A stretch of DNA of 54,093 bases from a virus (IMGVR_UViG_3300032301_000602:1-54093), one strand, 5' to 3'; positions 25,469-37,385 are shown, counted from the stretch's first letter. Notes: generated by a model not told the origin, from the letters alone. Program-made: numbers and translations.

Positions 25469-26013
25469 AAGAATTTCGGACAGGATTCAAATGTGGAGCC
25501 GATTCCATCCTTGTGGGAAACAATCGGATTGACCCCGTTTGGTATCGGCCAATCTATTGCTATTGTCTTGTCGTTCCAGATTAGGGTGTGTTCAGAAGCT
25601 GGATCGTAGTAGCTGGTGCATTTGTAGTGGAAAACAACATCATCACTGAGGCTAAAGAAGCCGTGGGCAAATCCTTCCGGTATAAACAACATTAGCTTGT
25701 TGTGTTCGGACAACGCGAATCCCTGCCATTCCCCGAATGTATCCGAAGACTTACGCAAGTCCACGATAACGTCGAAGACACAACCTCGTAGCACAGATAC
25801 CATCTTTCCTTGCGGGTTTGGTAGCTGGTAATGGAGGCCGCGCAACACGTTCTTTTTGGAATAGCTTACATTGTCTTGGACAAACGTTAGTGGTAACCCC
25901 GACTCGTCAAGGGTTCTTTGGTTCCAAGGCTCAAAGAAAGATCCCCTTTCATCCTCAAATACCCTTGGCTTGAGCAGTCGGGCATCCTTAAGATTGGATG
26001 GATAAACTGTCAT
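25465..26013 (-). CDS. rfbC: dTDP-4-dehydrorhamnose 3,5-epimerase
   Basis: FEDERGSFFE, FVQDNVSYS..VLRGLHYQ, QGKMV, DVIVDLR, IPEGFAHGF, YKCTSYY. Confidence 0.95.
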   Translation of the reverse strand: MTVYPSNLKDARLLKPRVFEDERGSFFEPWNQRTLDESGLPLTFVQDNVSYSKKNVLRGLHYQLPNPQGKMVSVLRGCVFDVIVDLRKSSDTFGEWQGFALSEHNKLMLFIPEGFAHGFFSLSDDVVFHYKCTSYYDPASEHTLIWNDKTIAIDWPIPNGVNPIVSHKDGIGSTFESCPKFL

Positions 26014-26561
26014 CAGAACTTCATCACAATCAGGGCATCATCGAACCTGTTTTTGACATTACGCAAGTCAATCAATTCACAGTTGGAGTGGATAGACTTT
26101 AATGAGGAATACACGCTACTCACATCAAGTATGTCTTCAACGATATACACCCCGCCATTGTTCATCCGATCCCGAAGCAAGTTGAAGGTCGCTATCTGAT
26201 CCGATGGTACATGAGATCCATCATCTATGATAACGTCAAAGGTTGTGTCGCCAATCTTGTTGAGCAAGTCCGGTTGCGTTGCATCTGCCTCCAGAACTGT
26301 GAGGCGAGGGCTTTTGAAGTCCGATGTGTCAAAGACCACACTGATATCCGCCCCGTATATTCGGGCATCGTCCCCGAAATACTCGTCCCACATGCGAAGT
26401 GAGTAACCGAAGGCCAGACCAATCTCCAAGATCGTACCAAAGTCCCTATATGGTTTCAGTAGTTCCTCGTATACGGGAATATATGAATGGAGATTCCCTT
26501 TGTCGGCGTGGCCAACATCTCCCTCAAGCCCGTGTTTTTCGTATATCTTTTGTAGCGTCAT
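26013..26561 (-). CDS. Class I SAM-dependent methyltransferase (sugar O-methyltransferase-like)
   Basis: DKG..HSY..VYE, ILEIG..GYSLRMW..YF, FDVIIDDGSH..DQ, GGVYIVEDI. Confidence 0.8.
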   Translation of the reverse strand: MTLQKIYEKHGLEGDVGHADKGNLHSYIPVYEELLKPYRDFGTILEIGLAFGYSLRMWDEYFGDDARIYGADISVVFDTSDFKSPRLTVLEADATQPDLLNKIGDTTFDVIIDDGSHVPSDQIATFNLLRDRMNNGGVYIVEDILDVSSVYSSLKSIHSNCELIDLRNVKNRFDDALIVMKF

Positions 26562-27193
26562 AAATTCATTTCGTAATTTTGTTTTGCATGCCAGTTTGCC
26601 TTGAACTTATAGAAGTCCAACTCTGGAAAATACTCAACCAGCCTTGGTACACTGTTGTTGTACACACATTTGGTTTCAAGGGGAAGTCTTTGTCTTGTCA
26701 AAAATCCCGAATCACCCAGAACAAAAGACTCATTGTGTATCAAGCTATCCTTAATGGCATTCAGAATGGAGACATCACTGCTGGTGTTCCTAAACTTCAG
26801 GATTTCTCTCTTGTGTTTTTCAATAATATCTTTGTTATACACTCCCATATGCATGGAGCAGTTTGCCCCCTCAAATAGCCGCGCATCTTTTAAATTACTG
26901 TTGCCCAAGAGATCCAGAAATCTTTCCCCGAAAAAGCAGGTATCATGGGTGTAGAAAAAGGGTTCATCTCCGCACAGATTGTAGTTGTTCTCAATTAGGT
27001 AAATAAGACCCGTCAAATCGAATGAGTTAACATCTGTGAAGAAAACATTGTGGTATCCAATGTCAATTGGTTCTGCCGATCCTCCCACAATAAAGCAAAA
27101 TACTTCTGGGTTATTATCCAAGATTGCCCCCTCGTTGATCTTCTCAAGGGTTGTCTTGATGTTTCTGATATTGGAATTTATTATTACTTTCAT
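26558..27193 (-). CDS. Putative glycosyltransferase-like protein
   Basis: NSFDLTGLI..FFYTHDTC..YKFKANW; AT-rich; lies within the glycan cluster. Confidence 0.5.
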   Translation of the reverse strand: MKVIINSNIRNIKTTLEKINEGAILDNNPEVFCFIVGGSAEPIDIGYHNVFFTDVNSFDLTGLIYLIENNYNLCGDEPFFYTHDTCFFGERFLDLLGNSNLKDARLFEGANCSMHMGVYNKDIIEKHKREILKFRNTSSDVSILNAIKDSLIHNESFVLGDSGFLTRQRLPLETKCVYNNSVPRLVEYFPELDFYKFKANWHAKQNYEMNL

Positions 27194-27199
27194 TGGATC

Positions 27200-27853
27200 T
27201 CACGCCATAATATAATCCAATTCTTTTTGCGACTTGACCCCGTGGATTATGTCGCACCCGTCCAGCCTAGCTTTCCGAGCGTCCTCAAGGGACCCCGCAA
27301 GGTCCAAGCTGTTCCTACTGAACTCCTTCATCAGGTCATATTTGACGGGAACTTTAGCCTCCTGACATACCCAAGCTAAAAAACAATCTGGAGAACCTTC
27401 AACGCATCCATAGTGCCATTCCTGAGACACAAGCTGTCTTCCAACCTCCAGCAATACCCCTGCCGTGGGGCGGTCAATAAACCAAGGATTGTGTATAAAG
27501 AAATTAGCCTTGCTGTTGTTGTGGCCGTAGCCAGCCAAGTGCGCAGCCATTCCGTTCCATTCTGGAACCTTACTGAAGAACAAAACATCGTATTCGGTAA
27601 TGCAAAAATGAGATGCATCTGTGGTCAGGCAATATTGAATAGTATCTAAAAGCCTGATGGGCAGGTGTTTGCCGTTTATGTAACGATTGGCCCCGATCTG
27701 CACATTAACCACACCCTCTGGCCATACACATCCTCCGTCAGCAGTGCCAATCCCGTGGATCTCGTCGGCCCCCGCATTGAGGTAGTATGGCCAATGCCGT
27801 GCCACTATCGGGTTTGCTTTGGTGTATGATTGTATGGTCAGTAGGAGTTTCAT
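27200..27853 (-). CDS. Putative glycosyltransferase-like protein
   Basis: ITEYDVLF (ExD), HNPW, SPD.FL, IIHGVK; first gene of the cluster. Confidence 0.45.
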   Translation of the reverse strand: MKLLLTIQSYTKANPIVARHWPYYLNAGADEIHGIGTADGGCVWPEGVVNVQIGANRYINGKHLPIRLLDTIQYCLTTDASHFCITEYDVLFFSKVPEWNGMAAHLAGYGHNNSKANFFIHNPWFIDRPTAGVLLEVGRQLVSQEWHYGCVEGSPDCFLAWVCQEAKVPVKYDLMKEFSRNSLDLAGSLEDARKARLDGCDIIHGVKSQKELDYIMA

Positions 27854-27889
27854 AAAAAAGGGGGGGGACGATTCGCCCCCCCCCCCTTT
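27854..27889 (-). terminator. Intrinsic terminator ending the early operon, built from G11/C8 homopolymer arms
   Basis: Minus strand AAAG11-CGAATCGT-C8-TTTTTT directly followed by the ATG at 27853. Confidence 0.65.
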
Positions 27890-27906
27890 GATGTATCCCC
27901 TCTTGC

Positions 27907-28062
27907 TTAGAATTGCAAGGGATTTGCGGTAGCCATTTCCTCCACAAGGGGAAGAACATGGACTGTCTCTTTGCTTGGTTTGCGCGGAGCCTCGACTGTT
28001 GTCACGATGGCGACAAAGACCGAGAGCGAAACCATCATTGCTATGTATTTGTAGTAGTTCAT
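27907..28062 (-). CDS. Small membrane-anchored protein (not in ORF track)
   Basis: MNYYKYIAMMVSLSVFVAIVTTVEAP.. Confidence 0.55.
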   Translation of the reverse strand: MNYYKYIAMMVSLSVFVAIVTTVEAPRKPSKETVHVLPLVEEMATANPLQF

Positions 28063-28166
28063 TTCTTTCTGTATTTAGTTATTTGATCGACGTTGTAGTA
28101 GATGATCATCCCGAAGACAAAGATAAAGAGAAGGATAAAGAATCCATCAACAATAAAGTTGATCAT
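28059..28166 (-). CDS. Small single-TM protein (not in ORF track)
   Basis: MINFIVDGFFILLFIFVFGMIIYYNVDQITKYRKK, ATGA-coupled on both sides. Confidence 0.55.
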   Translation of the reverse strand: MINFIVDGFFILLFIFVFGMIIYYNVDQITKYRKK

Positions 28167-28411
28167 ATCCTGATCCCTTCTTCATCCAACAGGATGCCTT
28201 GGTCCCTAAAATGGTGGAGCAGTTGCCCCATCAACTCGTCTGAAACGATATCTTCAATGTCAATGAAGAATTGTTTGCCGAGCTTGCGGACCTCTGGAAT
28301 GGTCATGGTCAGTTCAATAGTTGAGCTATCGTTCCATATGACAACGACCCCGCCTCGCCCCCGATTGATTGAGGTGTTGGCAGTTGTGGTTATGTGGCGG
28401 TGGGTTTTCAT
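28163..28411 (-). CDS. Hypothetical early protein
   Basis: 82 aa, ATGA coupling. Confidence 0.55.
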   Translation of the reverse strand: MKTHRHITTTANTSINRGRGGVVVIWNDSSTIELTMTIPEVRKLGKQFFIDIEDIVSDELMGQLLHHFRDQGILLDEEGIRI

Positions 28412-28602
28412 TGGCCGTTGATCCTTTTGACTACGGACTCGACTGACTCCAGCGTTTTCAAGCAGCGCAAATTGCTTCCAACGAAAGAAGAGAAGCCGAA
28501 ATAATCTATCTCTGTTGTCTCGTCTTTTGCTGGTGCTACTGCTGTTATGAAAGCAGGGTTGAGGTATTTATCCTCACCCTTGGTGGTGGTTATTTTGATC
28601 AT
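28408..28602 (-). CDS. Hypothetical early protein
   Basis: MIKITTTKGEDKYLNPAFITAV..ESVESVVKRI. Confidence 0.55.
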   Translation of the reverse strand: MIKITTTKGEDKYLNPAFITAVAPAKDETTEIDYFGFSSFVGSNLRCLKTLESVESVVKRINGQ

Positions 28603-28772
28603 GGGTTGTGTTTGTTTGAGAGCCAGATATCTAACTGGCGATAGGCTACCAGACGTTCCATCCATCCAGCGTTGGTGCTGAAATCTATGGACCAAGCCAG
28701 TAGCGAAGGTTGTTTTGGTTGACGGATCAGGAGCATGACATCATGCATAAAATCCCGAATAAGATTAGACAT
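28599..28772 (-). CDS. Early protein A (paralog of 31746-31934)
   Basis: LIRDFMHDVMLLIR..FSTNAGWMERLVAYRQLDIWLSNKH; differences from the paralog are mostly synonymous. Confidence 0.7.
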   Translation of the reverse strand: MSNLIRDFMHDVMLLIRQPKQPSLLAWSIDFSTNAGWMERLVAYRQLDIWLSNKHNP

Positions 28773-28983
28773 AGGAATCCTCCTGACGTTGGCATTCATC
28801 CTTGATTGCCTTGAGATCAGCAGCATAGGGCAAGCATCCGAGGTAGGCACAGGCATCCTTGACTTGGGCATCCCCGAACTCACGGCACAATTCAAACAGC
28901 GCAAGGCTATTGAACCTCTTGCCGCTAAAGGCGAGGCCCTCCCAGAATTCAAAGTGGGTTTCCCCACAGGCATCAGTCCACAT
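28765..28983 (-). CDS. Early protein B (paralog of 32269-32487)
   Basis: LFELCREFGDAQVKDAC.YLGC.P..ADL..SYV. Confidence 0.7.
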   Translation of the reverse strand: MWTDACGETHFEFWEGLAFSGKRFNSLALFELCREFGDAQVKDACAYLGCLPYAADLKAIKDECQRQEDSYV

Positions 28984-29148
28984 ATTCTACTTCCTTTTTA
29001 ATTGTGCGAAGGGCTTTGACCGCATCCCGAATATCAGCCCGAGGCAAGGGCTTGATATATGTGAAGCGATTGCGGTCTGCATATTCCCTCATCAGGTGGC
29101 GGCGAACTACCTGTTCCAGTAGCTCTACCTGTTCGTCGGTCAGAACAT

Positions 29149-29355
29149 TCATAGTGAGTTGTCCAATTCGGTGTTGCAGATGATGCGATAGGCTTTGATG
29201 GCCTCGCGAATGTCATCCCTTCTCCATTTTTTTACAGTGGGGAACTGATTTTGGTTGCGGGTTTTGAATCCCAACCTGACTGTGCGTCGAAGTACTGTAT
29301 CGAACAGCATCAGGTTCTCCATATTGGGTTTGAATTTTTGTATTTTGGTTTTCAT
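29149..29355 (-). CDS. Hypothetical early protein
   Basis: 68 aa downstream of a TTGAAC-type promoter. Confidence 0.55.
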   Translation of the reverse strand: MKTKIQKFKPNMENLMLFDTVLRRTVRLGFKTRNQNQFPTVKKWRRDDIREAIKAYRIICNTELDNSL

Positions 29356-29363
29356 TGTATTGT

Positions 29364-29393
29364 TCCGACAGTTGTGGTAGTTGTTTTGTTCAA
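29364..29393 (-). promoter_or_regulatory. TTGAAC-N18-GTC promoter
   Basis: TTGAAC-N18-GTCGGA, 8 nt before ATG 29355. Confidence 0.5.
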
Positions 29394-29402
29394 AGAAATT
29401 TT

Positions 29403-29606
29403 ATGAAAAGTAGTTGGTCCATCTATGATTTCCCCGCCGAAGAAGGCGAGACTCCGCTCCCTCCCCCGATCCCGAAACAACCGGAGGTCCCCCGCAAGTT
29501 AACCCAGCGGGAGAAGTTTGAGCTTATCCGCAATCGTCCAGACCGCAAAGGCAGGGGAGCCAGACGCAGGGCGGGAGAGAAGAAGTGGGCAACAAAAGGT
29601 AAGTAG
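29403..29606 (+). CDS. Small Pro/Arg-rich protein C, antisense to the early operon (paralog of 32489-32698)
   Basis: MKSSWSIYDFP..RNRPDRKGRGARRRAGEKKWATKGK; substitutions versus the paralog are synonymous in this frame. Confidence 0.6.
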   Translation: MKSSWSIYDFPAEEGETPLPPPIPKQPEVPRKLTQREKFELIRNRPDRKGRGARRRAGEKKWATKGK

Positions 29607-29610
29607 TTTT

Positions 29611-29886
29611 TCATGCGGTCCTCCAGAATCGCAGGGTCATGGTCCCGTTCCTCCGCTTGATCTGTCTGCCAACAAATTTCATTCCGTTTTTTCTTCCGTA
29701 GGTTGAGGCAATGGACCGGAGGGTGTTGAAGCTTGTCACCGCATCCTTGGGCCAAAGGAATGACTCCCCGACCTGAAGCTTCTTGAGCATGGATGGCAGT
29801 GGGTGGACTATGGTGCGGCTTTGCCCCCCTCGCGGGGAGGGAAGCAATACCGAATCATCTATGACGATGTGGTAACTACGTTTCAT
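29611..29886 (-). CDS. Small putative DNA-binding protein
   Basis: LKKLQVGESFLW..GRKNGMKF..LRFWRTA, a common small phage family. Confidence 0.6.
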   Translation of the reverse strand: MKRSYHIVIDDSVLLPSPRGGQSRTIVHPLPSMLKKLQVGESFLWPKDAVTSFNTLRSIASTYGRKNGMKFVGRQIKRRNGTMTLRFWRTA

Positions 29887-30213
29887 TTATAGATCCCGTT
29901 CATCTTCACTGAGATCCCGAATCAGATCTTGGTAGTTATCTTCTGTATGGATCTGGATCCTGTCCCACAGGAGGGTATCGATAGCCTCTGTTAGCTCTGG
30001 ATAGCCGTATACAGTGACTTTCTCCAGCCTCTGCACCATGTACACCAGATGAAGGGGTTCTCCGTCCAGAGGGGCGATTTCGGCCTTAGTAATCTCGACT
30101 CCGGTGGGTTCGGGATCTTCAGGGTAGGAGTAGTCCAGATCCGCTTCAATAAAAACGGAATAGGTTTTGCTATCGATGGTGATCTCCTTGTCGATTTCGA
30201 TTGAGTAGCTCAC
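29887..30213 (-). CDS. Hypothetical acidic early protein
   Basis: GTG start overlaps the histone-like gene stop, after AAGGA. Confidence 0.55.
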   Translation of the reverse strand: MSYSIEIDKEITIDSKTYSVFIEADLDYSYPEDPEPTGVEITKAEIAPLDGEPLHLVYMVQRLEKVTVYGYPELTEAIDTLLWDRIQIHTEDNYQDLIRDLSEDERDL

Positions 30214-30392
30214 AGTGTCTTTCCTTTCGATGGGGCTTGAGTGACGATAGCCTTGCAAGCGGAACGTGCCGCCGCTTCGACTCTATCGATAGTTTCCTGA
30301 CTGACTCTGGAAAACTTGTGGGCGCGATTGGTCGCAGCGAATTCCAGAATGTATTTTTTGACTTTGGATTTGTTGATCAGTGCGTTGTTCAT
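30210..30392 (-). CDS. Histone-fold-like protein, copy 1
   Basis: LINKSKVKKYI..RVSQETIDRVE..ACKAIVTQA.SKGKTL matches the bacterial histone alpha1-L1-alpha2-L2 pattern. Confidence 0.6.
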   Translation of the reverse strand: MNNALINKSKVKKYILEFAATNRAHKFSRVSQETIDRVEAAARSACKAIVTQAPSKGKTL

Positions 30393-30397
30393 GGTTT

Positions 30398-30937
30398 TTA
30401 TTTGGATTCGGGATTTTGGTTGGGGGATGAAAGGCGAAGCCACTCATCGTTGACCTTTTTCATGCGTTGCTTGAGGTCTCCTAGCTTCTCTGGACAGTAG
30501 GTTTCCAGATTGTTGATAGCTTCCCAAGCAATCCAAGAGAATGCGTTGGTAATGTCCTTGTGCTTATTCATGGTTTTTTCTATTTGGTTTTTGTTTTGTT
30601 GTGGCAGATCAGAACCAGATTCTCCTGAGAGATCCGATGACCGCATCGTGCCGTGAAATCCATGGGGATGGTGGGAAATTCGGGTGTTGTCACCATCTTC
30701 CCGTCAAACAGGACAGGGATCTGTTCCCCTGCGATGTTGAGTGTGAGCTTATTCATTGGTTTATTTATATATATGAAGGTCTGCATATCCATTGGGTAAA
30801 ATTACAACATCTACATAGTCCCCGTGCTGGAGTCTGTCTGTGGCGGATCGGGATACGAAATAGATGTAAACTCCATCTACTTGGATAAACTTTTCACCAT
30901 CTCCCATAACCATAACATTTCGTATGATCTTATTCAT
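30398..30937 (-). other. Three small hypothetical early genes (30398-30571, 30580-30756, 30761-30937)
   Basis: Closely packed ATG ORFs of 57-58 aa, all starting MNK. Confidence 0.5.
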
Positions 30938-31490
30938 TGTTGCTCATCATCTTCCAAATGAATAGGTCTGCATCCGCCAGACACAGGTGGGGAAAGGAGG
31001 AGGCAATAAGCTCTCTCGCCTGTTTCTCCAACTGGTCATAGCGTTTTCCACTGGGTGTCTGCTTGGGTGTCTTGACACCATGCGTCTCGCGCATCCAGCG
31101 AAGAATATGGGTGTCCAGCACTGCTCCCTCATGGTTTGGGCGGGAATGGAGCAGGAAGAAGTTTGCTGTCTTTGGCCCGATCCCGTGAACCTTGAGGAGA
31201 TCTCCCATCGTGCATGTACGGAGGTTGAGCTTCATCACTCCCAGCAGGGCGGGGAGAATGCGGTTGTACTGTCCGACCTTCCAAAATCGCAGATGGTCCA
31301 ACAAAGGAATCCGCTTGAGGTAATCGAAGGGGGTTTCATCTGGTTTCGCCTCCTTCAATACTTTTGCAATGAGGTTGGCGGTTTGTCTGGCATTCTTCCC
31401 TGCGACTGCAATGGAAAACACCATGAATGATTCCAGTTCAGCATCTGTGCGCTGGAAGTTGGTGATGTTAAGTGGATCTACTGTTTTCAT
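30930..31490 (-). CDS. HhH-GPD superfamily DNA glycosylase (Ogg-like)
   Basis: DLLKVHGIGPKTANFFLLHS..VLDTHILRWM..Y..LE..ADADLFIW. Confidence 0.8.
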   Translation of the reverse strand: MKTVDPLNITNFQRTDAELESFMVFSIAVAGKNARQTANLIAKVLKEAKPDETPFDYLKRIPLLDHLRFWKVGQYNRILPALLGVMKLNLRTCTMGDLLKVHGIGPKTANFFLLHSRPNHEGAVLDTHILRWMRETHGVKTPKQTPSGKRYDQLEKQARELIASSFPHLCLADADLFIWKMMSNNE

Positions 31491-31753
31491 TTGTTGTCGA
31501 TTAAGTATTCTTCTTCCAGCATTTCATTGTCCCTCAATCCCTTGAGAAGGTCTCCGAAGTCCTCGTCTGGTATTGAGGTGGGGTAGTTTTGTTCGTAGTA
31601 GCCAGCACCTCCGAAGGTATCGTGTTCGTATTTCCACAACTCTCCTTGTGTTGTGGTGAGACGCATTGTCCCCGATTCCGAGGTTAGGGTGATGACTCTC
31701 TGTGCGTAGGGGTAACGGACCCCTTTCGTAGTGTGGGTATATCTCTTATTCAT
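31487..31753 (-). CDS. Hypothetical early protein
   Basis: 88 aa, coupled. Confidence 0.55.
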   Translation of the reverse strand: MNKRYTHTTKGVRYPYAQRVITLTSESGTMRLTTTQGELWKYEHDTFGGAGYYEQNYPTSIPDEDFGDLLKGLRDNEMLEEEYLIDNK

Positions 31754-31934
31754 TGTCTGTTGTGTGTTTGTTGGATAGCCAGATGTCTAACTGGCGAAAA
31801 GCTACGAGACGTTCCATCCATCCTGCATTAGTGGAGAAGTGGATGCCGTGTGCCAGTAGCGAAGGTTGTGGTTTGGGTTTGCGGATTAGGAGCATGACAT
31901 CATGCACAAAATCCCGAATCAATCCTCTGCTCAT
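31746..31934 (-). CDS. Early protein A' (paralog of 28599-28772)
   Basis: See A. Confidence 0.7.
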   Translation of the reverse strand: MSRGLIRDFVHDVMLLIRKPKPQPSLLAHGIHFSTNAGWMERLVAFRQLDIWLSNKHTTDNE

Positions 31935-32248
31935 ATGGCAGACTCCGCATCCATCCACAGTAGTGCTGGATGGGTTTTCTTTACCACATAAATGTGGAAG
32001 TGGGCATCCCGTGGGTTGACCTTATGTTTTCGGAGGTCAATGGTGGAAACGCCTTTCATTTCCTTGCGTTCCTTAACCCAGTCATAGACCTTGCTGGCAT
32101 CCTCTCTGGATGAGCATGCCCATGCAACTCGACTGGTCCCGCCTTTAGCAGCACCCCAGTGGGACATGAATGTGTCTCTGGCAATGACTCCGAAGTGGTG
32201 GGTGGATTTCTGTTCTTTGGTTCTATCGTCTTTGGTTGTGGTTTTCAT
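31931..32248 (-). CDS. Hypothetical early protein
   Basis: DTFMSHWG.A.GG.S..AWAC..HFHIY. Confidence 0.6.
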   Translation of the reverse strand: MKTTTKDDRTKEQKSTHHFGVIARDTFMSHWGAAKGGTSRVAWACSSREDASKVYDWVKERKEMKGVSTIDLRKHKVNPRDAHFHIYVVKKTHPALLWMDAESAI

Positions 32249-32268
32249 TGGTGGTTATTTTTCTGGTT

Positions 32269-32487
32269 TTATACATAGCTTGCTTCTACTCGCTCACACT
32301 CTTGACGAATGGACGAGAGGTCAGCAATACATGGAAAGCATCCGAGGTGAACACAGGCATCCAGCACCTGTGCGTCTCCAAATTCTCTGCAAAGGTTGAA
32401 CAATGGCAATGACTGAAATGTGCGACCATTGATCTTAATTCCTTGCCATAGCTCAAACTGTATGTTACCGAGTGCGTCTTTAAACAT
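32269..32487 (-). CDS. Early protein B' (paralog of 28765-28983)
   Basis: See B. Confidence 0.7.
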   Translation of the reverse strand: MFKDALGNIQFELWQGIKINGRTFQSLPLFNLCREFGDAQVLDACVHLGCFPCIADLSSIRQECERVEASYV

Positions 32488-32488
32488 A

Positions 32489-32698
32489 ATGAGATCCTCT
32501 TGGTCTATTCACGATTTCCCTCCGTCTGATGGCGAGACTCCGGCTCCGCAACCAGACAAGCCCATCCCCGCGACTCCTCTGACTTGGCAGGAGAAGGCAG
32601 CAATCCGTTTTGAGGCACTGCGTAATCGTCCAGACCGCAAAGGCAGGGGAGCCAGACGCAGGGCAGGAGAGAAGAAGTGGGCAACCAAGGGGAAGTGA
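32489..32698 (+). CDS. Small protein C' (paralog of 29403-29606), antisense to the early operon
   Basis: MRSSWSIHDFP..RNRPDRKGRGARRRAGEKKWATKGK. Confidence 0.6.
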   Translation: MRSSWSIHDFPPSDGETPAPQPDKPIPATPLTWQEKAAIRFEALRNRPDRKGRGARRRAGEKKWATKGK

Positions 32699-32817
32699 TT
32701 CATTCTTCTGACTCCTCTGGGAAGATAACCAGCACAGGGTTGTCATGTCCTTTGACCTCCAGATTGAATTGCTGGTGGTTGTCGTTCTGGACAGAGGCGT
32801 GATCGTGATTGCTTTCA

Positions 32818-33548
32818 TTAATTTTCCTCCGTTGCTTTAATTGCTTGCCATGCGTTGCTGATCGCATCCTCAAGCATTCTCTGCATGGAGGAGTCTTCAG
32901 CTTGTTCTGGTTCGATCATCTGCACAAGATGCTTCAACACTTTGCACAATTGCTGTTCGTTTGCGCTCACAGTGTCTTTCCTTTCGATGGGGCCGAGGTC
33001 ACTGTATACCATTGCTGTTTTTTGGGTTTCATTGGTCTTTAATCTCCCGTTGCAATTTCTCGTATTGTTTTTGTAGGTGCTTTGCGGTCTCTGACTCGTC
33101 GCCAGAGTAGTCGTTGGCAAGAGAGATCGCCTCTGCTGCTAATGACATTGCCTTGTATAGTGCTTGTTGTGTTTTGGTTTTCATTGGGTCTTTGGTTTTC
33201 TGTTGTGGTTTATTTGTTGTCTTCTAATTCGTCTACGCAGGCTTTAATCATGTCGAGATAGTATCCTCCGAGCTTGAAATCCCGCGCATCCTCATAGCAG
33301 CAGCATCCGAGGTAGTCAGATGCCTCCACGCCATGAGAATCCCGCACAGTGACTTTGGCCGTGAACCATGCCCACTGATCCCCAGACTCAAGGCGAGCAA
33401 TGATCCTATCCTCATAGGCTTTGTCTTCCTCGTCTCCCCAAGCAGAAACATTGCCTATGACTGTGACTGTTTCCGGTAGTGCCTCCAGTGTGATATCATA
33501 CTCACGCTCATAGGCTTTGATTAGGTCCTGTTCTGTGGTCTTCATCAT
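32818..33548 (-). other. Small early genes 32818-32970, 32967-33032 (21-aa mini-ORF), 33029-33184, 33210-33548
   Basis: Overlap-coupled ORFs with CA-rich leaders. Confidence 0.5.
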
Positions 33549-33727
33549 AGTGTTTGTCCTTTCGATGGTGCGGCAGCTACGATTGACTGACATGCGGAAC
33601 GTGTTGCTGCCTCGACCTTCATTAATGTGTCCTCACTGACTCTGGTAAACTTGTGGTGGCGTGTCTTGGAGGCATGGTCCAAGAGGTACTGCTTCACGCT
33701 TTTGACTGTGATTAGTTTGCTGCTCAT
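33545..33727 (-). CDS. Histone-fold-like protein, copy 2
   Basis: LITVKSVKQYLL..RVSEDTLMKVEAATRSACQSIV.AAPSKGQTL; same length (60 aa) as copy 1. Confidence 0.55.
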   Translation of the reverse strand: MSSKLITVKSVKQYLLDHASKTRHHKFTRVSEDTLMKVEAATRSACQSIVAAAPSKGQTL

Positions 33728-33731
33728 AAGA

Positions 33732-34172
33732 TTATCCAAAGACAACATCTCCCCAGAGGCACAGTTGAAGAAATACATCTCCGGTCTCTGCATCGTCGTT
33801 GTCGTTCATTAGGTTTTTGAAATGGTGGGACCATTTGCCGCTTGCCAGTAATTGCAATCCGGCGCGAATAGTTCCGAGATCGAGCAGACCATCTGGCATG
33901 GATTCCTCATCATCTCCCACGATCAGATATCCTCCCCTGTTGGTGGGGAAGTCTGTGTAGCTTGTGGGCTTCTCCATGAGGTCTGGCATATAACGGAACG
34001 TGAATTGCTCCGGTGCTTTCTTGACTTTGATATGATACCAGTAGTTACTACCTCCCTCGAAAGCGCAGCAGAGCATGTCTGCGACTCGCTCAAGAGGGAC
34101 CTCGACTTCTGTCGTTACCTTAAACGACTGACGTAACTGGTTGTGTTTATTTGCGGTGGTTGTGGTTTCCAT
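33732..34172 (-). CDS. Hypothetical early protein
   Basis: AFEGGSNYW..DDAETGDVFLQLCLWGDVVFG, a recurrent phage family. Confidence 0.65.
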   Translation of the reverse strand: METTTTANKHNQLRQSFKVTTEVEVPLERVADMLCCAFEGGSNYWYHIKVKKAPEQFTFRYMPDLMEKPTSYTDFPTNRGGYLIVGDDEESMPDGLLDLGTIRAGLQLLASGKWSHHFKNLMNDNDDAETGDVFLQLCLWGDVVFG

Positions 34173-34176
34173 AAGA

Positions 34177-34392
34177 TTAGTTGGTTTGTAATTTGAGGTT
34201 CTTTTCTTCCATAGCATAAGCAGAATTCTCCAGAGAAGTATTCAATGTGCGGAGGGTATGCCAGATGCTATCCAATCCCTTCTTGTCGAAGGATGAGAGT
34301 AGCTCCATGTCCACCTCCCAAAGCATGTCTGCCATAGCACCGACTATCATGGCGGCTTTGCGAGTTTCTTTGATGGTGGTTGTGGTGGTCAT
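34177..34392 (-). CDS. Hypothetical early protein
   Basis: First gene after the 34419-34446 promoter. Confidence 0.55.
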   Translation of the reverse strand: MTTTTTIKETRKAAMIVGAMADMLWEVDMELLSSFDKKGLDSIWHTLRTLNTSLENSAYAMEEKNLKLQTN

Positions 34393-34418
34393 GGTGGTTG
34401 TGACTTGTTGTGACTTTG

Positions 34419-34467
34419 ACTGTATTGGGTTGGACATAGTATGCAAGTAAAAAATACAAAATATTTA
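34419..34467 (-). promoter_or_regulatory. Sigma70-like early promoter with AT-rich UP element
   Basis: TTGCAT-N16-TACAGT preceded by AATATTTTGTATTTTTTA. Confidence 0.6.
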
Positions 34468-34473
34468 AGGGAG

Positions 34474-34502
34474 AAAAGGGGAGCGGGAAAATCCCGCCCC
34501 CC
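34474..34502 (-). terminator. Intrinsic terminator
   Basis: GGGGGCGGGA-TTT-TCCCGCTCCCC-TTTT. Confidence 0.65.
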
Positions 34503-34509
34503 TAACCTA

Positions 34510-34767
34510 CTAACGTCTGCTCGCCATAGCTTTAAGCTCGGCCTTGATCCGCTTCGCATTCTCGCCCCGCCATGATGACGCATTGGACAGGAAATAAAGC
34601 ACGATTGACCGCGCATCGTCGTATCCATAGTTGTCATCGATGGAGTCGAGACCCATCATGGCAGACAGATATGGCTTTGCAGCAAAGTTGACTTTCGTCC
34701 AATCTCGCCTTATCTCGCTGGCAATGGTGGAGAGACTACGCTTTTCGGTTTGGTTTTTTGTTATCAT
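34510..34767 (-). CDS. Conserved phage early protein
   Basis: RSLSTIASEIRRDW..AAKPYLSAM..LYFLSNASSWRGENAKRIKAEL. Confidence 0.7.
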   Translation of the reverse strand: MITKNQTEKRSLSTIASEIRRDWTKVNFAAKPYLSAMMGLDSIDDNYGYDDARSIVLYFLSNASSWRGENAKRIKAELKAMASRR

Positions 34768-34791
34768 ATATGGTTGGTTGTTGGTTGTTGT

Positions 34792-35496
34792 TTATTCATC
34801 ACCACCGGAGGTCAGCTTCGCTTTAGCTGTCTGGTAACCATGAGCAGTGATGAAAATATGGGGAAGGGGTTTGCTCCGGCTTGCGGTGCGTCTGTTGCCA
34901 TCGCACAATCCGCATTGCTTGCAGGTCATTCCCTTTGCATCCGCCAGACATTCGATTCCGGTGGCAGGTATGGCATGCGGCACAACGGAAAAGGTGCGAA
35001 GACCGAGAGATTGTGCCTGTCTAAAGTTGCCAACCTCCGTTGATGCCATGAAAAATTGACCATAGGCCTGTGCTGTCTCCACGGGCATTAAATGCCAGTC
35101 ATGGAAATAGCCTGTGATCTTTTTTGCTTTGCTGGCAATGTCTTTGACCATGTCAAGAGGAATTAGTGACGGATTCCCATAGGCTCCAAAGCGCACAAAT
35201 TCCACCGAAAAGAAAGCATCCCATTCCGGTGATCCCATGAGGAGGGGTGGATATCCTCCCCTCTGGAATTTACGCCAGATCGAGGAGAGAGGATTGGCGT
35301 TAACATAACATCCGTTGCCACTGGCGAATCTGCAACCCATGCACTGGTTCTGTGCGTCATGTCCTGTTTTCCTTGACTCTACAGGGTGCATGCTTGCATC
35401 AAGGATCCAAAGTTGCACAGACTCGCCTGTCTTCCGGTTTGCACTGTTCGCAGTGGCGATGACGATGACTGACTCGGTTTGGTGTATAAGGTACAT
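34792..35496 (-). CDS. Cys-rich early protein (possible Fe-S/radical-SAM-like fold)
   Basis: NRKTG..CMGC..GCYV..VRFGAYGNP..GYFHDW..C..CKQCGLC. Confidence 0.55.
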   Translation of the reverse strand: MYLIHQTESVIVIATANSANRKTGESVQLWILDASMHPVESRKTGHDAQNQCMGCRFASGNGCYVNANPLSSIWRKFQRGGYPPLLMGSPEWDAFFSVEFVRFGAYGNPSLIPLDMVKDIASKAKKITGYFHDWHLMPVETAQAYGQFFMASTEVGNFRQAQSLGLRTFSVVPHAIPATGIECLADAKGMTCKQCGLCDGNRRTASRSKPLPHIFITAHGYQTAKAKLTSGGDE

Positions 35497-35503
35497 GGTA
35501 GTA

Positions 35504-35758
35504 TTAGTCCCAAAGGAGGATTGCCAGCGTCCCAAGGAACGCGAGCATGGCGACTTCGAGCAGAGTCTGTATGGTGGATGGTTCGATCATGGTGTGATTA
35601 GGTGAAGGCTGAAAAGGAGAGGGGAAAATCCCGAAACAAAACAAGATACTTCCCCCCACGCATAGAGCAAAGGGTGAAGCTTGTCGGAATTCTCGCATGA
35701 TCCCGCGAAGGTAGAACGCGAAGCGGGGAGTGTTGAATTTGTAGAGGTTGTATTTCAT
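35504..35758 (-). CDS. First early gene, hydrophobic (may be two small ORFs)
   Basis: ATG 8 nt after the promoter -10; C-terminal TM segment. Confidence 0.4.
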   Translation of the reverse strand: MKYNLYKFNTPRFAFYLRGIMREFRQASPFALCVGGSILFCFGIFPSPFQPSPNHTMIEPSTIQTLLEVAMLAFLGTLAILLWD

Positions 35759-35766
35759 ACGGGGAC

Positions 35767-35795
35767 AAATTAAGACGGGGGAAGGGCAAGGGCAA
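35767..35795 (-). promoter_or_regulatory. Sigma70-like early promoter
   Basis: TTGCCC-N17-TAATTT with AT-rich upstream tract. Confidence 0.55.
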
Positions 35796-35799
35796 GATT

Positions 35800-36350
35800 T
35801 ATTTTCAATTAGATTAAAGATTACTCGAACGTTCGTTTAAATGGGGGGGATTGCTCCAATGCGGGAATGGGGGGTAGTACAAGTCATGTCCTATGCCCCC
35901 CCCAAGGGGAGAAGCTTGGAGCGAATAGGGGCGGGGGCGAAGTTGTCTCATGCCATAGGGCAAGGGGAAGCGAAGGGGCATTATGTTTCGGGATTTCATC
36001 CTACCCGAACCCGATTACCTGACAAGAACGGGGCGGGATGGAGCGCAATTGAGGCCAGCAAAGGCGGGGATTCCGCCATGCCATGATGAGCGGGGAATGG
36101 TCAAAGCCCGTCATATGGCCGTTTAAACGTATTACCACCTATCAAAGCGGGGGAACGGGGCCGGATGGTCAAGGGAAGCGGGGTGAACGCATGCAATCGG
36201 GACCCATAGGCGGGACGCAAGGCGAAGCGGGGACGGGGCGGCGGGACAGCATGCAGGACACCACACACAGCCACCCACCATACGGGTGGTCGGTCCACCC
36301 TTCTCTATGGGACGGCGGCATCACCACGAGAATACCCGATCTCAAGTTTT
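35800..36350. other. Non-coding G-skewed region between divergent transcription units (candidate genome end/packaging or origin region)
   Basis: Many G3-G7 runs on + strand, switching to C/A-rich near 36260; no credible ORF. Confidence 0.45.
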
Positions 36351-36352
36351 AT

Positions 36353-36381
36353 TTGACAAAACAATTCTGAGTAACTACACT
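36353..36381 (+). promoter_or_regulatory. Sigma70 promoter, near-leaderless
   Basis: TTGACA-N17-TACACT, 8 nt before ATG 36390. Confidence 0.7.
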
Positions 36382-36389
36382 AGTCTACT

Positions 36390-37385
36390 ATGAGTAAACA
36401 TTTCGCACCGCTTAAAAACAGAAACACGGTTAACACGTTTTTCAATATCCATATTGTTAAAAAGGGCCTTACTGATCGCTATAGCTTTCTCTATCGGAAG
36501 GCTGGGTTTGGTAATCCAGAGGGCCATGAGTTTCGATTGTGGTGCAGGAGCCAGTATTGCGAAGAAATGCGTCAGGACAGGTTTATGGGATTGGTTCGCA
36601 AGCTATCGGCCCGTTGCCAAAACCACAGGTTTCAGAAGGTTAACAGGGTTAAGTTCTCTACAGCTTCAGGACCAATTAAGAACAGGTATAAGATAGCCCG
36701 TAACAAGGCCATTACTTGGAGTCTATACGAGGATATTCGCAAAGCTTGGATTGCTATGCATCCAGAGGGGACACAGAAGAGGGGGATGGGTATACAGTTT
36801 ATTCACTTCATAGAGTCTTGGATTCGGGATTTTAAGGTCTACCATGAGCATGATGGGTTTATGGGGGATATACAGAGAGAGATTAATAAACTACAAAAGG
36901 TAGAGGAGTTAGAACTGGATAATTTTGCTTCGGCCTTTTGGTCGGATGCGACAGTAACCGATGGCAACAAGATCTGTTACGAGAACTACCGCAAGGGTCT
37001 TGGCAGGAAACAATCTCGCAGGGCATACCACCTATTGATGGACATTTATAAGAGATACTATGGAGACAGACTTGTTAGTCCAGACGCCCGTAGACGCCAC
37101 TCTCAGAGAAGGCGCACATTAAAGTCTGCTAAAAAGGACTCTAGGGTTCGCACAAAGATCCTTGCAATCAATGCTGGGCCATGTAAATGCTATTGGTGTG
37201 GGATTTCTTTGCCTCAAGGTGGACACGCTGACCATGTTGTGCCATTGTCCAAGGGTGGTAGCCACACTTGTGATAACATAGTAGCCGCCTGCAAGATATG
37301 CAACGAGACCAAGAAAGACACGATGCCCGACTCCAAGGATCTTCCGATTCACATGGAGTTACAGCTACCCTTAATCCACAACTGA
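36390..37385 (+). CDS. HNH endonuclease with long N-terminal extension
   Basis: CYWCG..HADHVVPLSKGGSHTCDNIVAACKICNETK. Confidence 0.85.
   Translation: MSKHFAPLKNRNTVNTFFNIHIVKKGLTDRYSFLYRKAGFGNPEGHEFRLWCRSQYCEEMRQDRFMGLVRKLSARCQNHRFQKVNRVKFSTASGPIKNRYKIARNKAITWSLYEDIRKAWIAMHPEGTQKRGMGIQFIHFIESWIRDFKVYHEHDGFMGDIQREINKLQKVEELELDNFASAFWSDATVTDGNKICYENYRKGLGRKQSRRAYHLLMDIYKRYYGDRLVSPDARRRHSQRRRTLKSAKKDSRVRTKILAINAGPCKCYWCGISLPQGGHADHVVPLSKGGSHTCDNIVAACKICNETKKDTMPDSKDLPIHMELQLPLIHN

What the first reader, a model, noticed from the sequence alone, without database searches (positions are those of the whole stretch)
30210..33727. Two phage histone-fold-like genes in the early region
Seen: two 60-aa paralogs (30210-30392, 33545-33727) with L(I)xxSxVKxYI/L..RVSxxTxxxVE..ACxxIVxxA.SKGxTL. 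Knowledge, recalled rather than searched: the Bdellovibrio histone Bd0055 has LVVTSKVKKLI..TSAETIDVL..LC..GV..A..GRKTV. These proteins stop right after the L2 KT motif, so they lack helix 3, and they have a longer L1. Inference: minimal histones, possibly heterodimerising, expressed early to coat phage DNA or remodel the host nucleoid.
Basis: partly seen in the sequence, partly recalled or inferred. Interest (0 to 1): 0.7.

Follow-up and report, generated by a model that had tools for sequence, protein, structure and literature searches.

The report
Minimal two-helix histones in a phage
An uncultivated phage carries two copies of a tiny, very basic protein that is predicted to fold and pair like a histone but lacks the third helix, and it belongs to a large, unnamed, mostly viral family that probably binds and bends DNA.

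Summary
Two 60-aa paralogs (55% identical) lie at 30210-30392 and 33545-33727, both on the minus strand.

The histone reading is supported in silico:
- The monomer model is alpha1-L1-alpha2-L2 with no alpha3. Its best structural matches are histone-fold proteins, including HBb, HTkC and HLp.
- A 66-member family profile reaches the solved alpha3 histone HTkC by sequence (E 7.4e-5).
- The homodimer prediction passes (0.81 against 0.00 for controls) with handshake-type contacts.
- A natural tandem member folds into a pseudodimer whose top 10 PDB matches are all histone doublets.

The family has at least 844 clusters at 50% identity, is uniformly basic, is under purifying selection, matches no Pfam or PHROG family, and looks mostly viral.

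It does not fit any published phage histone type. It has no alpha3, no RD clamp and about 7 extra residues in alpha1/L1.

Heterodimerisation is not required: 10 of 10 whole related genomes carry one copy. The two copies here belong to different clades and different gene contexts, so the locus is a mosaic. A 29-nt orphan tail marks a third junction. The conserved tail also holds a Shine-Dalgarno-like site for the overlapping downstream gene.

DNA binding, expression timing and biological role remain untested.

The parts
30210..30392 (-). Copy 1: 60-aa alpha3-less histone-fold protein (P0002), net charge +8, pI 10.3
   Evidence: Translation. Model pLDDT 87. Fold matches. Homodimer prediction. 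91-98% identical orthologs in L001-L008, L010 and L011, and 85% in L009. dN/dS 0.07-0.26.
33545..33727 (-). Copy 2: 60-aa paralog (P0003), net +6, pI 10.0. The tail reads PSKGQTL, so Q replaces the lysine of the KT motif.
   Evidence: Translation. 55% identical to copy 1. Groups with P0067 (95%), P0064, L017 and L018 in the tree. c1 vs c2: dN 0.36, dS 1.18.
32967..33032 (-). Orphan tail: a 21-codon mini-ORF whose last 9 codons plus stop are a 29-nt exact copy of the 3' end of copy 1 (32965-32993 = 30208-30236). Its ATG overlaps the upstream stop and its stop overlaps a downstream GTG.
   Evidence: Repeat family D9, 100% over 29 nt. Sequence and translation. No orphan tail was found in the 28 related loci.
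30222..30226 (-). Shine-Dalgarno-like AAGGA inside codons K56-G57-K58 of copy 1, 8 nt upstream of the overlapping GTG start at 30213-30211. The same element lies at 33557-33561 (copy 2) and 32979-32983 (orphan tail).
   Evidence: Synonymous-site conservation of codons 54-57: CCA 23/27, TCG 22/27, AAA 26/27, GGA 25/27. Third-position entropy is 0.46 at G57 against 1.8-2.0 at V11, A19, V30 and T51. Tail positions.
29887..30213 (-). Gene with overlapping stop/start downstream of copy 1: 108 aa, net -19, pI 4.1, no family match
   Evidence: GTGA overlap. Charge. No Pfam or PHROG hit. Homologs directly follow the histone-like gene in L008, L011, L016 and L020, and lie about 0.3 kb downstream in L001 and L004.
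33210..33548 (-). Gene with overlapping stop/start downstream of copy 2: 112 aa, net -14, pI 4.3, no family match
   Evidence: ATGA overlap. Charge. Homologs follow the single copy in L017 and L018.
32818..32970 (-). Gene with overlapping stop/start downstream of the orphan tail: 50 aa, net -5
   Evidence: No homolog in the 28 loci.
28599..30392 (-). Module A: gene block ending in copy 1, collinear with module B
   Evidence: Collinear blocks 28607-28760~31763-31919 (82%), 28813-28887~32317-32391 (73%), 29529-29604~32621-32696 (93%) and 30210-30321~33545-33656 (76%).
31746..33727 (-). Module B: gene block ending in copy 2, collinear with module A and sharing context with L017, L018 and L028

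Best explanation
Each gene encodes a minimal histone-fold protein: alpha1, an extended L1, alpha2 and L2, ending one residue after the conserved Lys-Thr of L2, with no alpha3.

Two chains pair in the histone handshake. The alpha2 helices cross antiparallel, each alpha1 packs on the partner's alpha2, and L1 of one chain lies against L2 of the other. The result is a small, strongly basic homodimer.

By analogy with HBb, I infer that the dimer binds the DNA backbone or minor groove through the two L1-L2 sites (R29-V30-S31 with K58-T59) and the alpha1 lysines (K12), and so bends DNA. Because it lacks the alpha3 surface that face-to-face histones use to form tetramers, it most likely acts as a dimer that bends or coats DNA and does not wrap it.

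In the phage it would act as an architectural DNA protein on phage DNA, host DNA or both. Which DNA, and when in infection, is not known.

The gene behaves as a cassette in a variable block of small genes. Its conserved 3' end carries the ribosome-binding site and overlapping start for whatever gene follows. The two copies in this genome result from mosaic recombination between lineages, not from a need for a heterodimer.

Shown in silico: fold, homology signal, dimer geometry, basic charge, conservation, copy number and mosaic context. Inferred: DNA binding, bending and biological role.
For: Fold:
- AF2 monomer, pLDDT 87: H8-22, loop 23-31, H32-52.
- Foldseek ranks three HBb entries first (TM 0.66, 31% identity) and then mostly nucleosomal histones.
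- In the VIA search the first 17 rows are all histone-fold entries, including HTkC (Z 5.2, 31% identity), HLp (Z 4.9) and HBb (Z 4.7, 38% identity).

Sequence: the 66-member profile hits HTkC 9f2c_A at E 7.4e-5 (best-stretch E 4.2e-4) over L1-alpha2, aligning the family's RVS with HTkC's RVS.

Dimer:
- The homodimer scores 0.81 (three runs 0.83/0.81/0.81) against a best control of 0.00 from three controls, with 136 contacts and partner pLDDT at least 91. In the tool's calibration the mark was reached by 20 of 30 proteins solved as pairs and 1 of 23 solved as single chains.
- Contact pairs 42:42, 41:41, 46:38 and 49:34 give i+j of about 83-84, meaning an antiparallel alpha2 crossing. Pairs 46:15, 50:19 and 42:11 show alpha2 lying on the partner's alpha1. 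L1 (22-31) and L2 (55-60) are both in the interface.

Independent test with a natural tandem: P0209, which holds two copies in one chain, folds at pLDDT 85 and pTM 0.73 with strands in L1 of copy 1 and L2 of copy 2. Its top 10 VIA matches are all histone doublets or pseudodimers: Melbournevirus 8.7 and 8.7, SOS histone domain 8.6, fused H2A-H2B 7.9, HMk 7.4, 1wwi 7.0, SAGA 7.0/6.6/6.3 and 1r4v 5.9. Rank 11 drops to 4.8.

DNA-binding features:
- Net charge is +2 to +10 (median +7) in 66 of 66 members.
- K/R occupies position 12 in 95% of members, 23 in 97%, 29 in 95%, 56 in 80% and 58 in 82%; T59 is present in 98%.
- These match the HBb contact classes K12 (alpha1), T23/S24 (L1) and K52/T53 (L2) reported in PMC11317129 (passages read).

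Real gene: dN/dS is 0.07-0.26.

Copy number and mosaic.

Tail as ribosome-binding site: a 4-nt stop/start overlap in 22 of 27 loci and synonymous-site conservation of AAGGA.
Against: - No experiment exists and no protein-DNA model could be run.
- All single-chain structural scores fall below the tools' own significance bars. Foldseek E is 1.2-2.1 and VIA Z is at most 5.5, where Z under 8 may reflect only a common arrangement.
- Foldseek on the tandem model found nothing at E<=1e-3; the SOS histone domain appeared only at rank 46.
- The HTkC hit covers only 30 residues. The narrower 24-member profile and the single sequence did not reach any histone.
- Pfam CBFD_NFYB_HMF and DUF1931 see nothing, either in the proteins (0 of 66 members) or in the genome at E<=10.
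- The dimer pass may come from the model's memory of solved histone dimers, and my own alignment was used, so the calibration holds only roughly.
- The alignment used for the tandem fold places single-copy members across both halves, which may favour the handshake.
- Two defining stabilising elements of histones are absent: alpha3 and the RD clamp. G57 sits where the clamp arginine would be, and the chain's carboxylate lies next to the presumed DNA-binding loop.
- Copy 2 has Q in place of the KT lysine.
Confidence: 0.6

Rival explanations
1. The fold is a histone fold, but the protein works through protein-protein contacts rather than DNA, as TAFs and DUF1931 pseudodimers do. It might, for example, bind a host nucleoid protein, a polymerase subunit or a defence protein.
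For: Many top structural matches are TAF/TFIID/SAGA histone-fold pairs that do not wrap DNA. PMC12701072 says DUF1931 pseudodimers lack the DNA-binding residues (passages read). The RD clamp and alpha3 contact residue found in HBb are absent. In this genome both copies are followed by very acidic proteins with overlapping stop/start (net -19 and -14) that could be partners.
Against: The family is uniformly basic (median +7, 66 of 66 positive). It keeps the KT motif and the L1 Arg/Ser positions that contact DNA in HBb. The acidic neighbour is not conserved: the downstream protein is acidic in 14, basic in 9 and near neutral in 4 of 27 loci.
Confidence: 0.15
2. The two paralogs form an obligate or preferred heterodimer, the first reader's suggestion, with a function distinct from either homodimer.
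For: Two diverged copies are kept intact in one genome and both have clean reading frames. Residues at the best-defined predicted contacts are mostly shared: 11 of 18 are identical by my reading. A heterodimer is therefore sterically plausible.
Against: 10 of 10 whole related records carry one copy, as do all 28 loci in the flanks held, so the homodimer is the family's default. The homodimer of copy 1 is predicted confidently. The copies sit in different clades, each with single-copy relatives, and in contexts that match two different phage lineages. That pattern points to acquisition by recombination.
Confidence: 0.1
3. The resemblance is convergent. The protein is a generic two-helix hairpin dimer unrelated to histones, for example a small regulator or an antitoxin-like protein.
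For: A 60-residue helix-loop-helix is a common arrangement. All monomer fold scores are weak. No Pfam histone model matches. Weak LacI HTH hits appear in 2 of 66 members (best E 0.0044).
Against: A sequence-only profile reaches a solved alpha3 histone at E 7.4e-5, with the L1 RVS aligned. The tandem member's 10 best matches are all histone doublets, with a clear gap to the next fold. The contact geometry is specifically that of the handshake. An Atlas lead points to a cluster in which 14% of members carry PF00808, though its score of 0.88 is below the tool's 0.9 bar, so it is a lead only.
Confidence: 0.08

Closest known systems
HBb (Bd0055) of Bdellovibrio bacteriovorus, the 'bacterial dimer' subfamily of alpha3 histones (PDB 8cmp, 8fvx, 9ezz, 9f0e)
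   Same: Similar size, at about 60 residues. Both stand alone with no extra domain. Both are dimers with no predicted higher oligomer. Both have a lysine in alpha1, Ser/Thr at the end of L1 and a KT motif in L2. HBb gives the best Foldseek matches (TM 0.66, 31% identity) and a VIA Z of 4.7 with 38% identity.
   Different: HBb has a one-turn alpha3, an R51-D58 RD clamp and an alpha3 DNA contact at R57. This family ends one residue after KT, has Gly at the clamp-arginine position and has about 7 more residues between the alpha1 lysine and the L1 serine. HBb is a cellular, essential chromatin protein, whereas this family looks mostly viral. No sequence-profile hit to HBb was obtained.
HTkC of Thermococcus kodakarensis (9f2c) and HLp of Leptospira perolatii (9qt0), the face-to-face (FtF) alpha3 histones
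   Same: HTkC is the only solved protein reached by sequence profile (E 7.4e-5). Structural matches are Z 5.2 (31% identity) for HTkC and Z 4.9 (24% identity) for HLp. Both have a short alpha2.
   Different: FtF histones form tetramers through the C-terminal part of alpha2, L2 and alpha3: HLp uses R49, N53, R55, T61 and F63 (PMC12701072, passages read). This family has no alpha3, so that interface cannot be formed in the same way. No tetramer was tested here.
Published phage histone-fold types: 'phage histones' (Schwab et al. 2024, PMC11390915) and VTTHFP, VHHHFP, VFFHFP and BBVHFP (Liu et al. 2025, PMC13681535 / bioRxiv 2024.12.06.627149)
   Same: These are alpha3-type histone folds encoded by tailed phages, found in metagenomes, with proposed DNA-bending or DNA-bridging roles.
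   Different: Phage histones and VTTHFP carry a long C-terminal tetramerisation helix. VFFHFP has a lysine-rich N-terminal tail and an FtF tetramer. BBVHFP has a C-terminal helix. VHHHFP has an alpha3 fold plus a 7-residue tail, with conserved K8/K9/K47/R48, which is HBb-like spacing. None is described as ending at the KT motif or as having the extended alpha1/L1. I could not check whether any member of this family is in their lists, because the supplements are closed.
DUF1931 pseudodimeric histones (1wwi, 1r4v) and histone doublets (HMk 1f1e, Melbournevirus doublets, SOS histone domain)
   Same: The natural tandem member P0209 is predicted to form the same intramolecular handshake (Z 5.9-8.7 over 107-116 aligned residues).
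   Different: The window's proteins are single-copy chains. PF09123 finds nothing in the genome. PMC12701072 says DUF1931 proteins lack the DNA-binding residues that this family keeps (passages read).

Membership tests
Histone fold (general) | alpha1-L1-alpha2-L2-alpha3 helix-strand-helix architecture | tested here: inconclusive
   alpha1 (8-22), L1 (23-31), alpha2 (32-52) and L2 (53-60) are present at pLDDT 87, but alpha3 is entirely absent. Fold matches are dominated by histone-fold proteins, though with weak scores.
Histone fold (general) | Handshake dimer: antiparallel alpha2 crossing with L1-L2 pairing | tested here: met
   Prediction only. The homodimer scores 0.81 against a best control of 0.00, with handshake contact geometry. 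The top 10 matches of the tandem member P0209 are all histone doublets.
Histone fold (general) | Match to Pfam CBFD_NFYB_HMF (PF00808) | tested here: not met
   No hit for the two proteins or for any of 66 family members at E<=1. No hit in six frames of the genome at E<=10.
alpha3-truncated histones (Schwab et al. 2024) | alpha3 truncated to 3-4 residues (definition from PMC11390915) | tested here: not met
   There is no alpha3 at all. The stop codon follows L60, one residue after T59. Most of the 66 aligned members end 0-4 residues after the Thr (alignment).
alpha3-truncated histones (Schwab et al. 2024) | alpha2 shorter than in nucleosomal histones | tested here: met
   alpha2 is 21 residues in the model. 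The papers describe alpha2 in alpha3 histones as 4-5 residues, or one turn, shorter than nucleosomal. The nucleosomal length itself was not measured here.
alpha3-truncated histones (Schwab et al. 2024) | Detectable sequence relation to a member | tested here: met
   The A2 profile against PDB sequences hits HTkC 9f2c_A at E 7.4e-5 (best stretch 4.2e-4) over residues 28-57. This was not reached with the narrower profile or with the single sequence. Schwab's own HMMs were not available.
HBb-like bacterial dimer histones | KT motif in L2 contacting DNA | tested here: met
   Across 66 members K/R occupies position 58 in 82% and T occupies position 59 in 98%. HBb uses K52/T53. Copy 2 has Q58. Only presence of the motif was tested, not DNA contact.
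HBb-like bacterial dimer histones | RD clamp (Arg in L2 with Asp in alpha3) | tested here: not met
   Position 57, which precedes K58, is Gly in 97% of members, and no alpha3 Asp exists.
Face-to-face (FtF) histones | Tetramer through the alpha2 C-terminus, L2 and alpha3 residues | not tested
   No tetramer prediction was run. The alpha3 residues used by HLp (T61, F63) have no counterpart here.
Phage histones / VTTHFP | Long C-terminal tetramerisation helix after the alpha3 fold | tested here: not met
   The proteins are 60 aa and end at L2. A search for longer forms found only 21, nearly all singletons and none with a Pfam domain.
VHHHFP (Liu et al.) | alpha3 fold plus a 7-residue flexible tail, with conserved K8, K9, K47 and R48 | tested here: inconclusive
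   There is no tail after L2, and the lysine spacing differs (K12/K13 to K56/K58 here). Their sequences and supplements could not be seen.
DUF1931 pseudodimers | Two fused histone folds; PF09123 match | tested here: not met
   The window's proteins are single chains, and PF09123 gives no match at E<=10.

The most novel reading that the evidence does not exclude
This is a previously unnamed, very large family of 'two-helix' histones, mostly viral as far as sampled. It would be the smallest histone-fold unit yet seen, having lost alpha3 and the RD clamp entirely while still forming the handshake dimer and binding DNA. With at least 844 clusters at 50% identity, it would outnumber the 289 non-redundant phage histone-fold proteins reported so far. 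That would make histone-type DNA architecture a common tool of tailed phages rather than a rarity. Its invariant tail would be a dual-use element: the DNA-binding loop in the protein, and in the DNA the ribosome-binding site and a recombination joint that lets the cassette be placed in front of many different genes.
Probability: 0.4. Interest if true: 0.75.

Novelty: new variant of a known kind. Interest (0 to 1): 0.6.

Why it matters
Bacterial histones were recognised only recently, and phage-encoded ones have so far been described only from surveys seeded with known histone profiles. This family escapes Pfam, PHROGs and, judging from the published descriptions, those surveys, yet it is large and conserved.

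If it binds DNA, it has three consequences:
- It defines the minimal sequence that can still make a histone dimer. That bears on how the fold arose from a helix-strand-helix unit.
- It gives a 60-residue, easily expressed model for histone-DNA contacts without alpha3.
- It suggests that many phages bring their own chromatin protein, with likely roles in replication, the switch between transcription programmes, packaging or host nucleoid takeover.

The dual coding of the tail, as DNA-binding loop and as ribosome-binding site, is a compact example of overlapping constraints in phage genomes.

Tried and rejected
- Plus-strand reading of the coordinates: closed or meaningless frames.
- Single-sequence searches found nothing significant: Pfam, PHROGs and PDB sequences, and the narrow 24-member profile against the PDB.
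- The cultivated or deposited phage collection gave no DNA match to 29000-35000, no tblastn match to copy 1 and none to the terminase. The 2911-aa protein matched only 2-9% of its length, in 4 records.
- The cellular genome scan with two narrow peptide patterns matched 22 stretches, none confirmed. This does not exclude distant cellular or prophage members.
A1 was used instead.
Whole records were reached by handles instead.
- Earlier scan notes, looked up by sequence: nothing to show.
- Foldseek with the tandem model found no match at E<=1e-3. BFVD with the monomer model found no match at E<=1e-3. Its unnamed 64-aa phage protein at TM 0.65 and a Clandestinovirus H3 at TM 0.61 are leads only.
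- The search for tandem relatives of P0209 found only P0209 itself.
- The promoter and terminator scan of 27500-36800 gave counts no higher than shuffles: 7 against 10.3 and 13 against 9.3. It offers no support for or against an early operon.
- RNA runs: no RNA holder was listed.
- An obligate acidic partner encoded downstream was considered and rejected, because the downstream gene differs among loci.
- P0103, a 1086-aa protein with nine matched stretches, was set aside as a repeat protein that shares only a DPSKGQAL-like motif.
- Literature search for 'histone fold' + 'helix-strand-helix' + 'bacteriophage' returned 0 papers.

Full report
**1. What is there**

The window is the whole record: one linear viral contig of 54,093 bases with no terminal repeat, rated 74% complete by CheckV. 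Its relatives are 66-76 kb phage genomes, several with direct terminal repeats. No deposited phage is close.

The two ORFs of the finding are real but lie on the minus strand. Both are 60 aa. They are 55% identical without gaps, E 1e-24.

Each ATG sits 5 nt after the upstream stop, and each stop overlaps the next start (GTGA, ATGA). They lie in a tightly packed minus-strand block of small genes (22.8-35.5 kb) whose members mostly match nothing or only PHROGs of unknown function.

**2. A real, conserved, basic protein family**

- Close relatives: 63, from metagenomes only, every name given being 'hypothetical protein' except two odd automatic names (names).
- A profile search over 1.84 billion representatives gave 844 at E<=1e-3 and 182 at E<=1e-10.
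- Across 66 diverse members net charge is +2 to +10 (median +7). P54 is invariant, S55 95%, G57 97%, T59 98%, and K/R occupies positions 12, 23 and 29 in at least 95%.
- dN/dS of copy 1 against close orthologs is 0.07-0.26.
- No Pfam family matches any of the 66. PHROGs gives nothing for the two proteins.
- The nearest ESM Atlas clusters are unnamed and about 90% viral. One lead below the tool's bar (score 0.88) is a cluster in which 14% of members carry PF00808.
- Longer forms are rare: 21, nearly all singletons. I did not fetch these; mis-called starts are my inference.

**3. Fold**

The AF2 monomer (pLDDT 87) is helix 8-22, loop 23-31, helix 32-52, then PSKGKTL and the stop.

- Foldseek against the PDB ranks three HBb entries first (E 1.2-2.1, TM 0.66, 31% identity), followed almost entirely by nucleosomal histones.
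- The exhaustive VIA search gives histone-fold entries in all of its first 17 rows: TAF4/TAF12 Z 5.5, HTkC 5.2, HLp 4.9 and HBb 4.7 with 38% identity.
- None of these scores is significant by the tools' own bars, as expected for a 60-residue helical hairpin.

Two further tests add weight.

- The broader sequence profile A2 reaches HTkC, a solved face-to-face alpha3 histone, at E 7.4e-5 among 177,635 PDB sequences. The family's RVS at the end of L1 aligns with HTkC's RVS.
- A natural tandem member, P0209 (two copies in one 129-aa chain), folds at pLDDT 85 and pTM 0.73. Its 10 best VIA matches are all histone doublets or pseudodimers, at Z 8.7 to 5.9 over 93-116 aligned residues (107-116 for nine of the ten). 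Rank 11 falls to 4.8.
- Caveats: Foldseek missed these matches, and the alignment used for the tandem fold spreads single-copy members over both halves.

**4. Dimer**

The homodimer of copy 1 scored 0.81 (three runs 0.83, 0.81, 0.81). The best of three controls scored 0.00. There were 136 contacts and partner pLDDT was at least 91. In the tool's calibration the mark was reached by 20 of 30 true pairs and 1 of 23 single chains.

The listed contacts define the handshake:
- alpha2 with alpha2, antiparallel about residues 41/42;
- the C-terminal half of alpha2 along the partner's alpha1;
- both L1 and L2 in the interface.

The pass may reflect likeness to solved histone dimers. It supports pairing but does not show it.

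**5. Comparison with characterised histones**

HBb contacts DNA with K12 (alpha1), T23/S24/A25 (L1 and the start of alpha2), K52/T53 (L2) and R57 (alpha3). It has an R51-D58 clamp and a one-turn alpha3 (PMC11317129, passages).

This family keeps the alpha1 lysine, the L1 serine preceded by a conserved arginine, and the KT pair. It differs in three ways:
- It ends one residue after the Thr.
- It has Gly at the clamp-arginine position.
- It has about 7 more residues between the alpha1 lysine and the L1 serine.

Face-to-face tetramers use alpha3 residues (PMC12701072, passages). Those residues are missing here, so I expect a dimer.

Published phage types do not fit (PMC11390915, passages; Liu et al., section 7 of the preprint, and passages of the journal version). 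They carry a C-terminal helix, an N-terminal tail, or an alpha3 fold plus a 7-residue tail with HBb-like lysine spacing. I could not see their supplements, so family members may still be in their lists.

**6. Why there are two copies**

All 28 related loci show a single copy in the flanks held (up to 6 kb a side; 14 loci are cut short on one side). 10 of 10 whole related records have one copy. G004's partial second match lies at the other end of that linear record, and I read it as the same gene repeated across the record ends.

Within the window four collinear blocks link module A (28.6-30.4 kb) to module B (31.7-33.7 kb) at 73-93% identity. The context splits between lineages:
- L001, L004, L008, L011, L016 and L020 carry a copy-1-type gene with the homolog of 29887-30213 just downstream.
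- L017 and L018 carry a copy-2-type gene flanked by homologs of 33732-34217 and 33210-33548.
- L028 has the gene at a third position.

In the tree, copy 1 groups with L001, L002 and L011. Copy 2 groups with P0067, P0064, L017, L018 and P0065, with moderate support on a 60-column alignment. The copies differ at dS of about 1.2.

The pair is therefore old or xenologous, brought together by recombination. Nothing requires a heterodimer, and a heterodimer was not tested.

**7. The tail as a junction**

A 29-nt exact copy of the 3' end of copy 1 recurs at 32965-32993. It closes a 21-codon mini-ORF that otherwise has nothing in common with the family, and its stop again overlaps a downstream start.

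- Across 27 loci the stop/start overlap occurs in 22, yet the downstream genes belong to many unrelated types and range from very acidic to very basic.
- Codons 54-57 are unusually fixed at synonymous sites: GGA in 25 of 27 unique sequences.
- They spell an AAGGA 8 nt before the downstream start.

I read the tail as both the L2 DNA-binding loop and the ribosome-binding site for the next gene. As a conserved stretch it would also be a likely joint for module exchange. The orphan tail would be the scar of such an exchange, kept because it still drives the downstream gene. This last part is inference.

**8. Function**

The most likely function is a homodimeric, non-wrapping DNA-bending or DNA-coating protein. 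That rests on the fold, the conserved contact classes and the charge. It is not shown.

The target (phage or host DNA) and the timing are open. The promoter scan was uninformative and no RNA holder was listed.

**9. Verdict**

The histone-fold reading is well supported in silico. Heterodimerisation and the early, protective roles remain unsupported.

This is a new variant of a known kind: an alpha3-less, clamp-less, extended-L1 histone family that is large, unnamed and mostly viral.

Noticed in passing
window 22813-27853 (-) and 3763-4383 (-): An accessory sugar-modification cluster lies at the downstream end of the same minus-strand block. It holds a dTDP-4-dehydrorhamnose 3,5-epimerase (25465-26013, PF00908, E 7e-66), two Methyltransf_24 proteins (24866-25468 and 26013-26561) and a DUF3431 protein (23595-24884). 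A second DUF3431 gene lies at 3763-4383. Among the 28 loci the whole set is shared only with L002. Whether it modifies the host surface, the virion or DNA is unknown.
   Followed up: partly
window 28599-28973 (-) versus 31746-31958 + 32269-32487 (-), with 31931-32248 between them: The 124-aa gene of module A corresponds to two separate ORFs in module B, which are separated by about 345 extra nt holding a 105-aa gene (phrog_5423, E 4e-9). L017, L018 and L028 show the same three-part order. Either a small gene was inserted or the gene in module A is a fusion.
   Followed up: partly
window 29529-29604 and 32621-32696: This is the best-conserved block between the two modules (93% over 76 nt), and it is open on both strands. 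The minus-strand ORFs are 29423-29755 and 32509-32703; the plus-strand ORFs, 29355-29606 and 32420-32698, end in the same arginine/lysine-rich stretch. From the translation I place an internal ATG at about 29614 that would overlap the upstream stop; this was not checked on the sequence. Which strand codes was not resolved.
   Followed up: no
window 14074-22809 (+): A 2911-aa ORF has no Pfam or PHROG match. Only residues of about 1400-1658 resemble hypothetical proteins of four deposited phages, at 26-40% identity.
   Followed up: partly
window 29887-30213, 33210-33548 and 32818-32970 (-): All three genes that follow a histone-type tail in this genome encode acidic proteins (net -19, -14 and -5). 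Across related loci the downstream protein is acidic in only 14 of 27, so this may be coincidence. A basic-acidic pairing in this particular phage was not excluded.
   Followed up: partly
proteins P0106, P0153, P0154, P0158, P0159 and P0209: The family has natural variants with two matched stretches. P0209 and P0106 are full tandems. P0154, P0158 and P0159 are forms of about 100 aa in which a first alpha1-L1-alpha2 is followed by a linker and a second alpha2-L2. Only P0209 was folded.
   Followed up: partly
window 30930-31490 (-): A helix-hairpin-helix, Ogg/EndoIII-like glycosylase-type protein (PF22175, E 4e-7; phrog_11575, E 4e-38) lies between the two modules. Its homologs sit near the histone-like gene in 7 of 28 loci.
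   Followed up: no
window 35536-36389: An 854-nt gap separates the minus-strand block from the plus-strand HNH endonuclease gene (36390-37385). It holds the two best sigma-70-like matches of the region, one on each strand (36353-36381 on +, 10 of 12; 36025-35998 on -, 9 of 12). The overall promoter count is not above chance.
   Followed up: no
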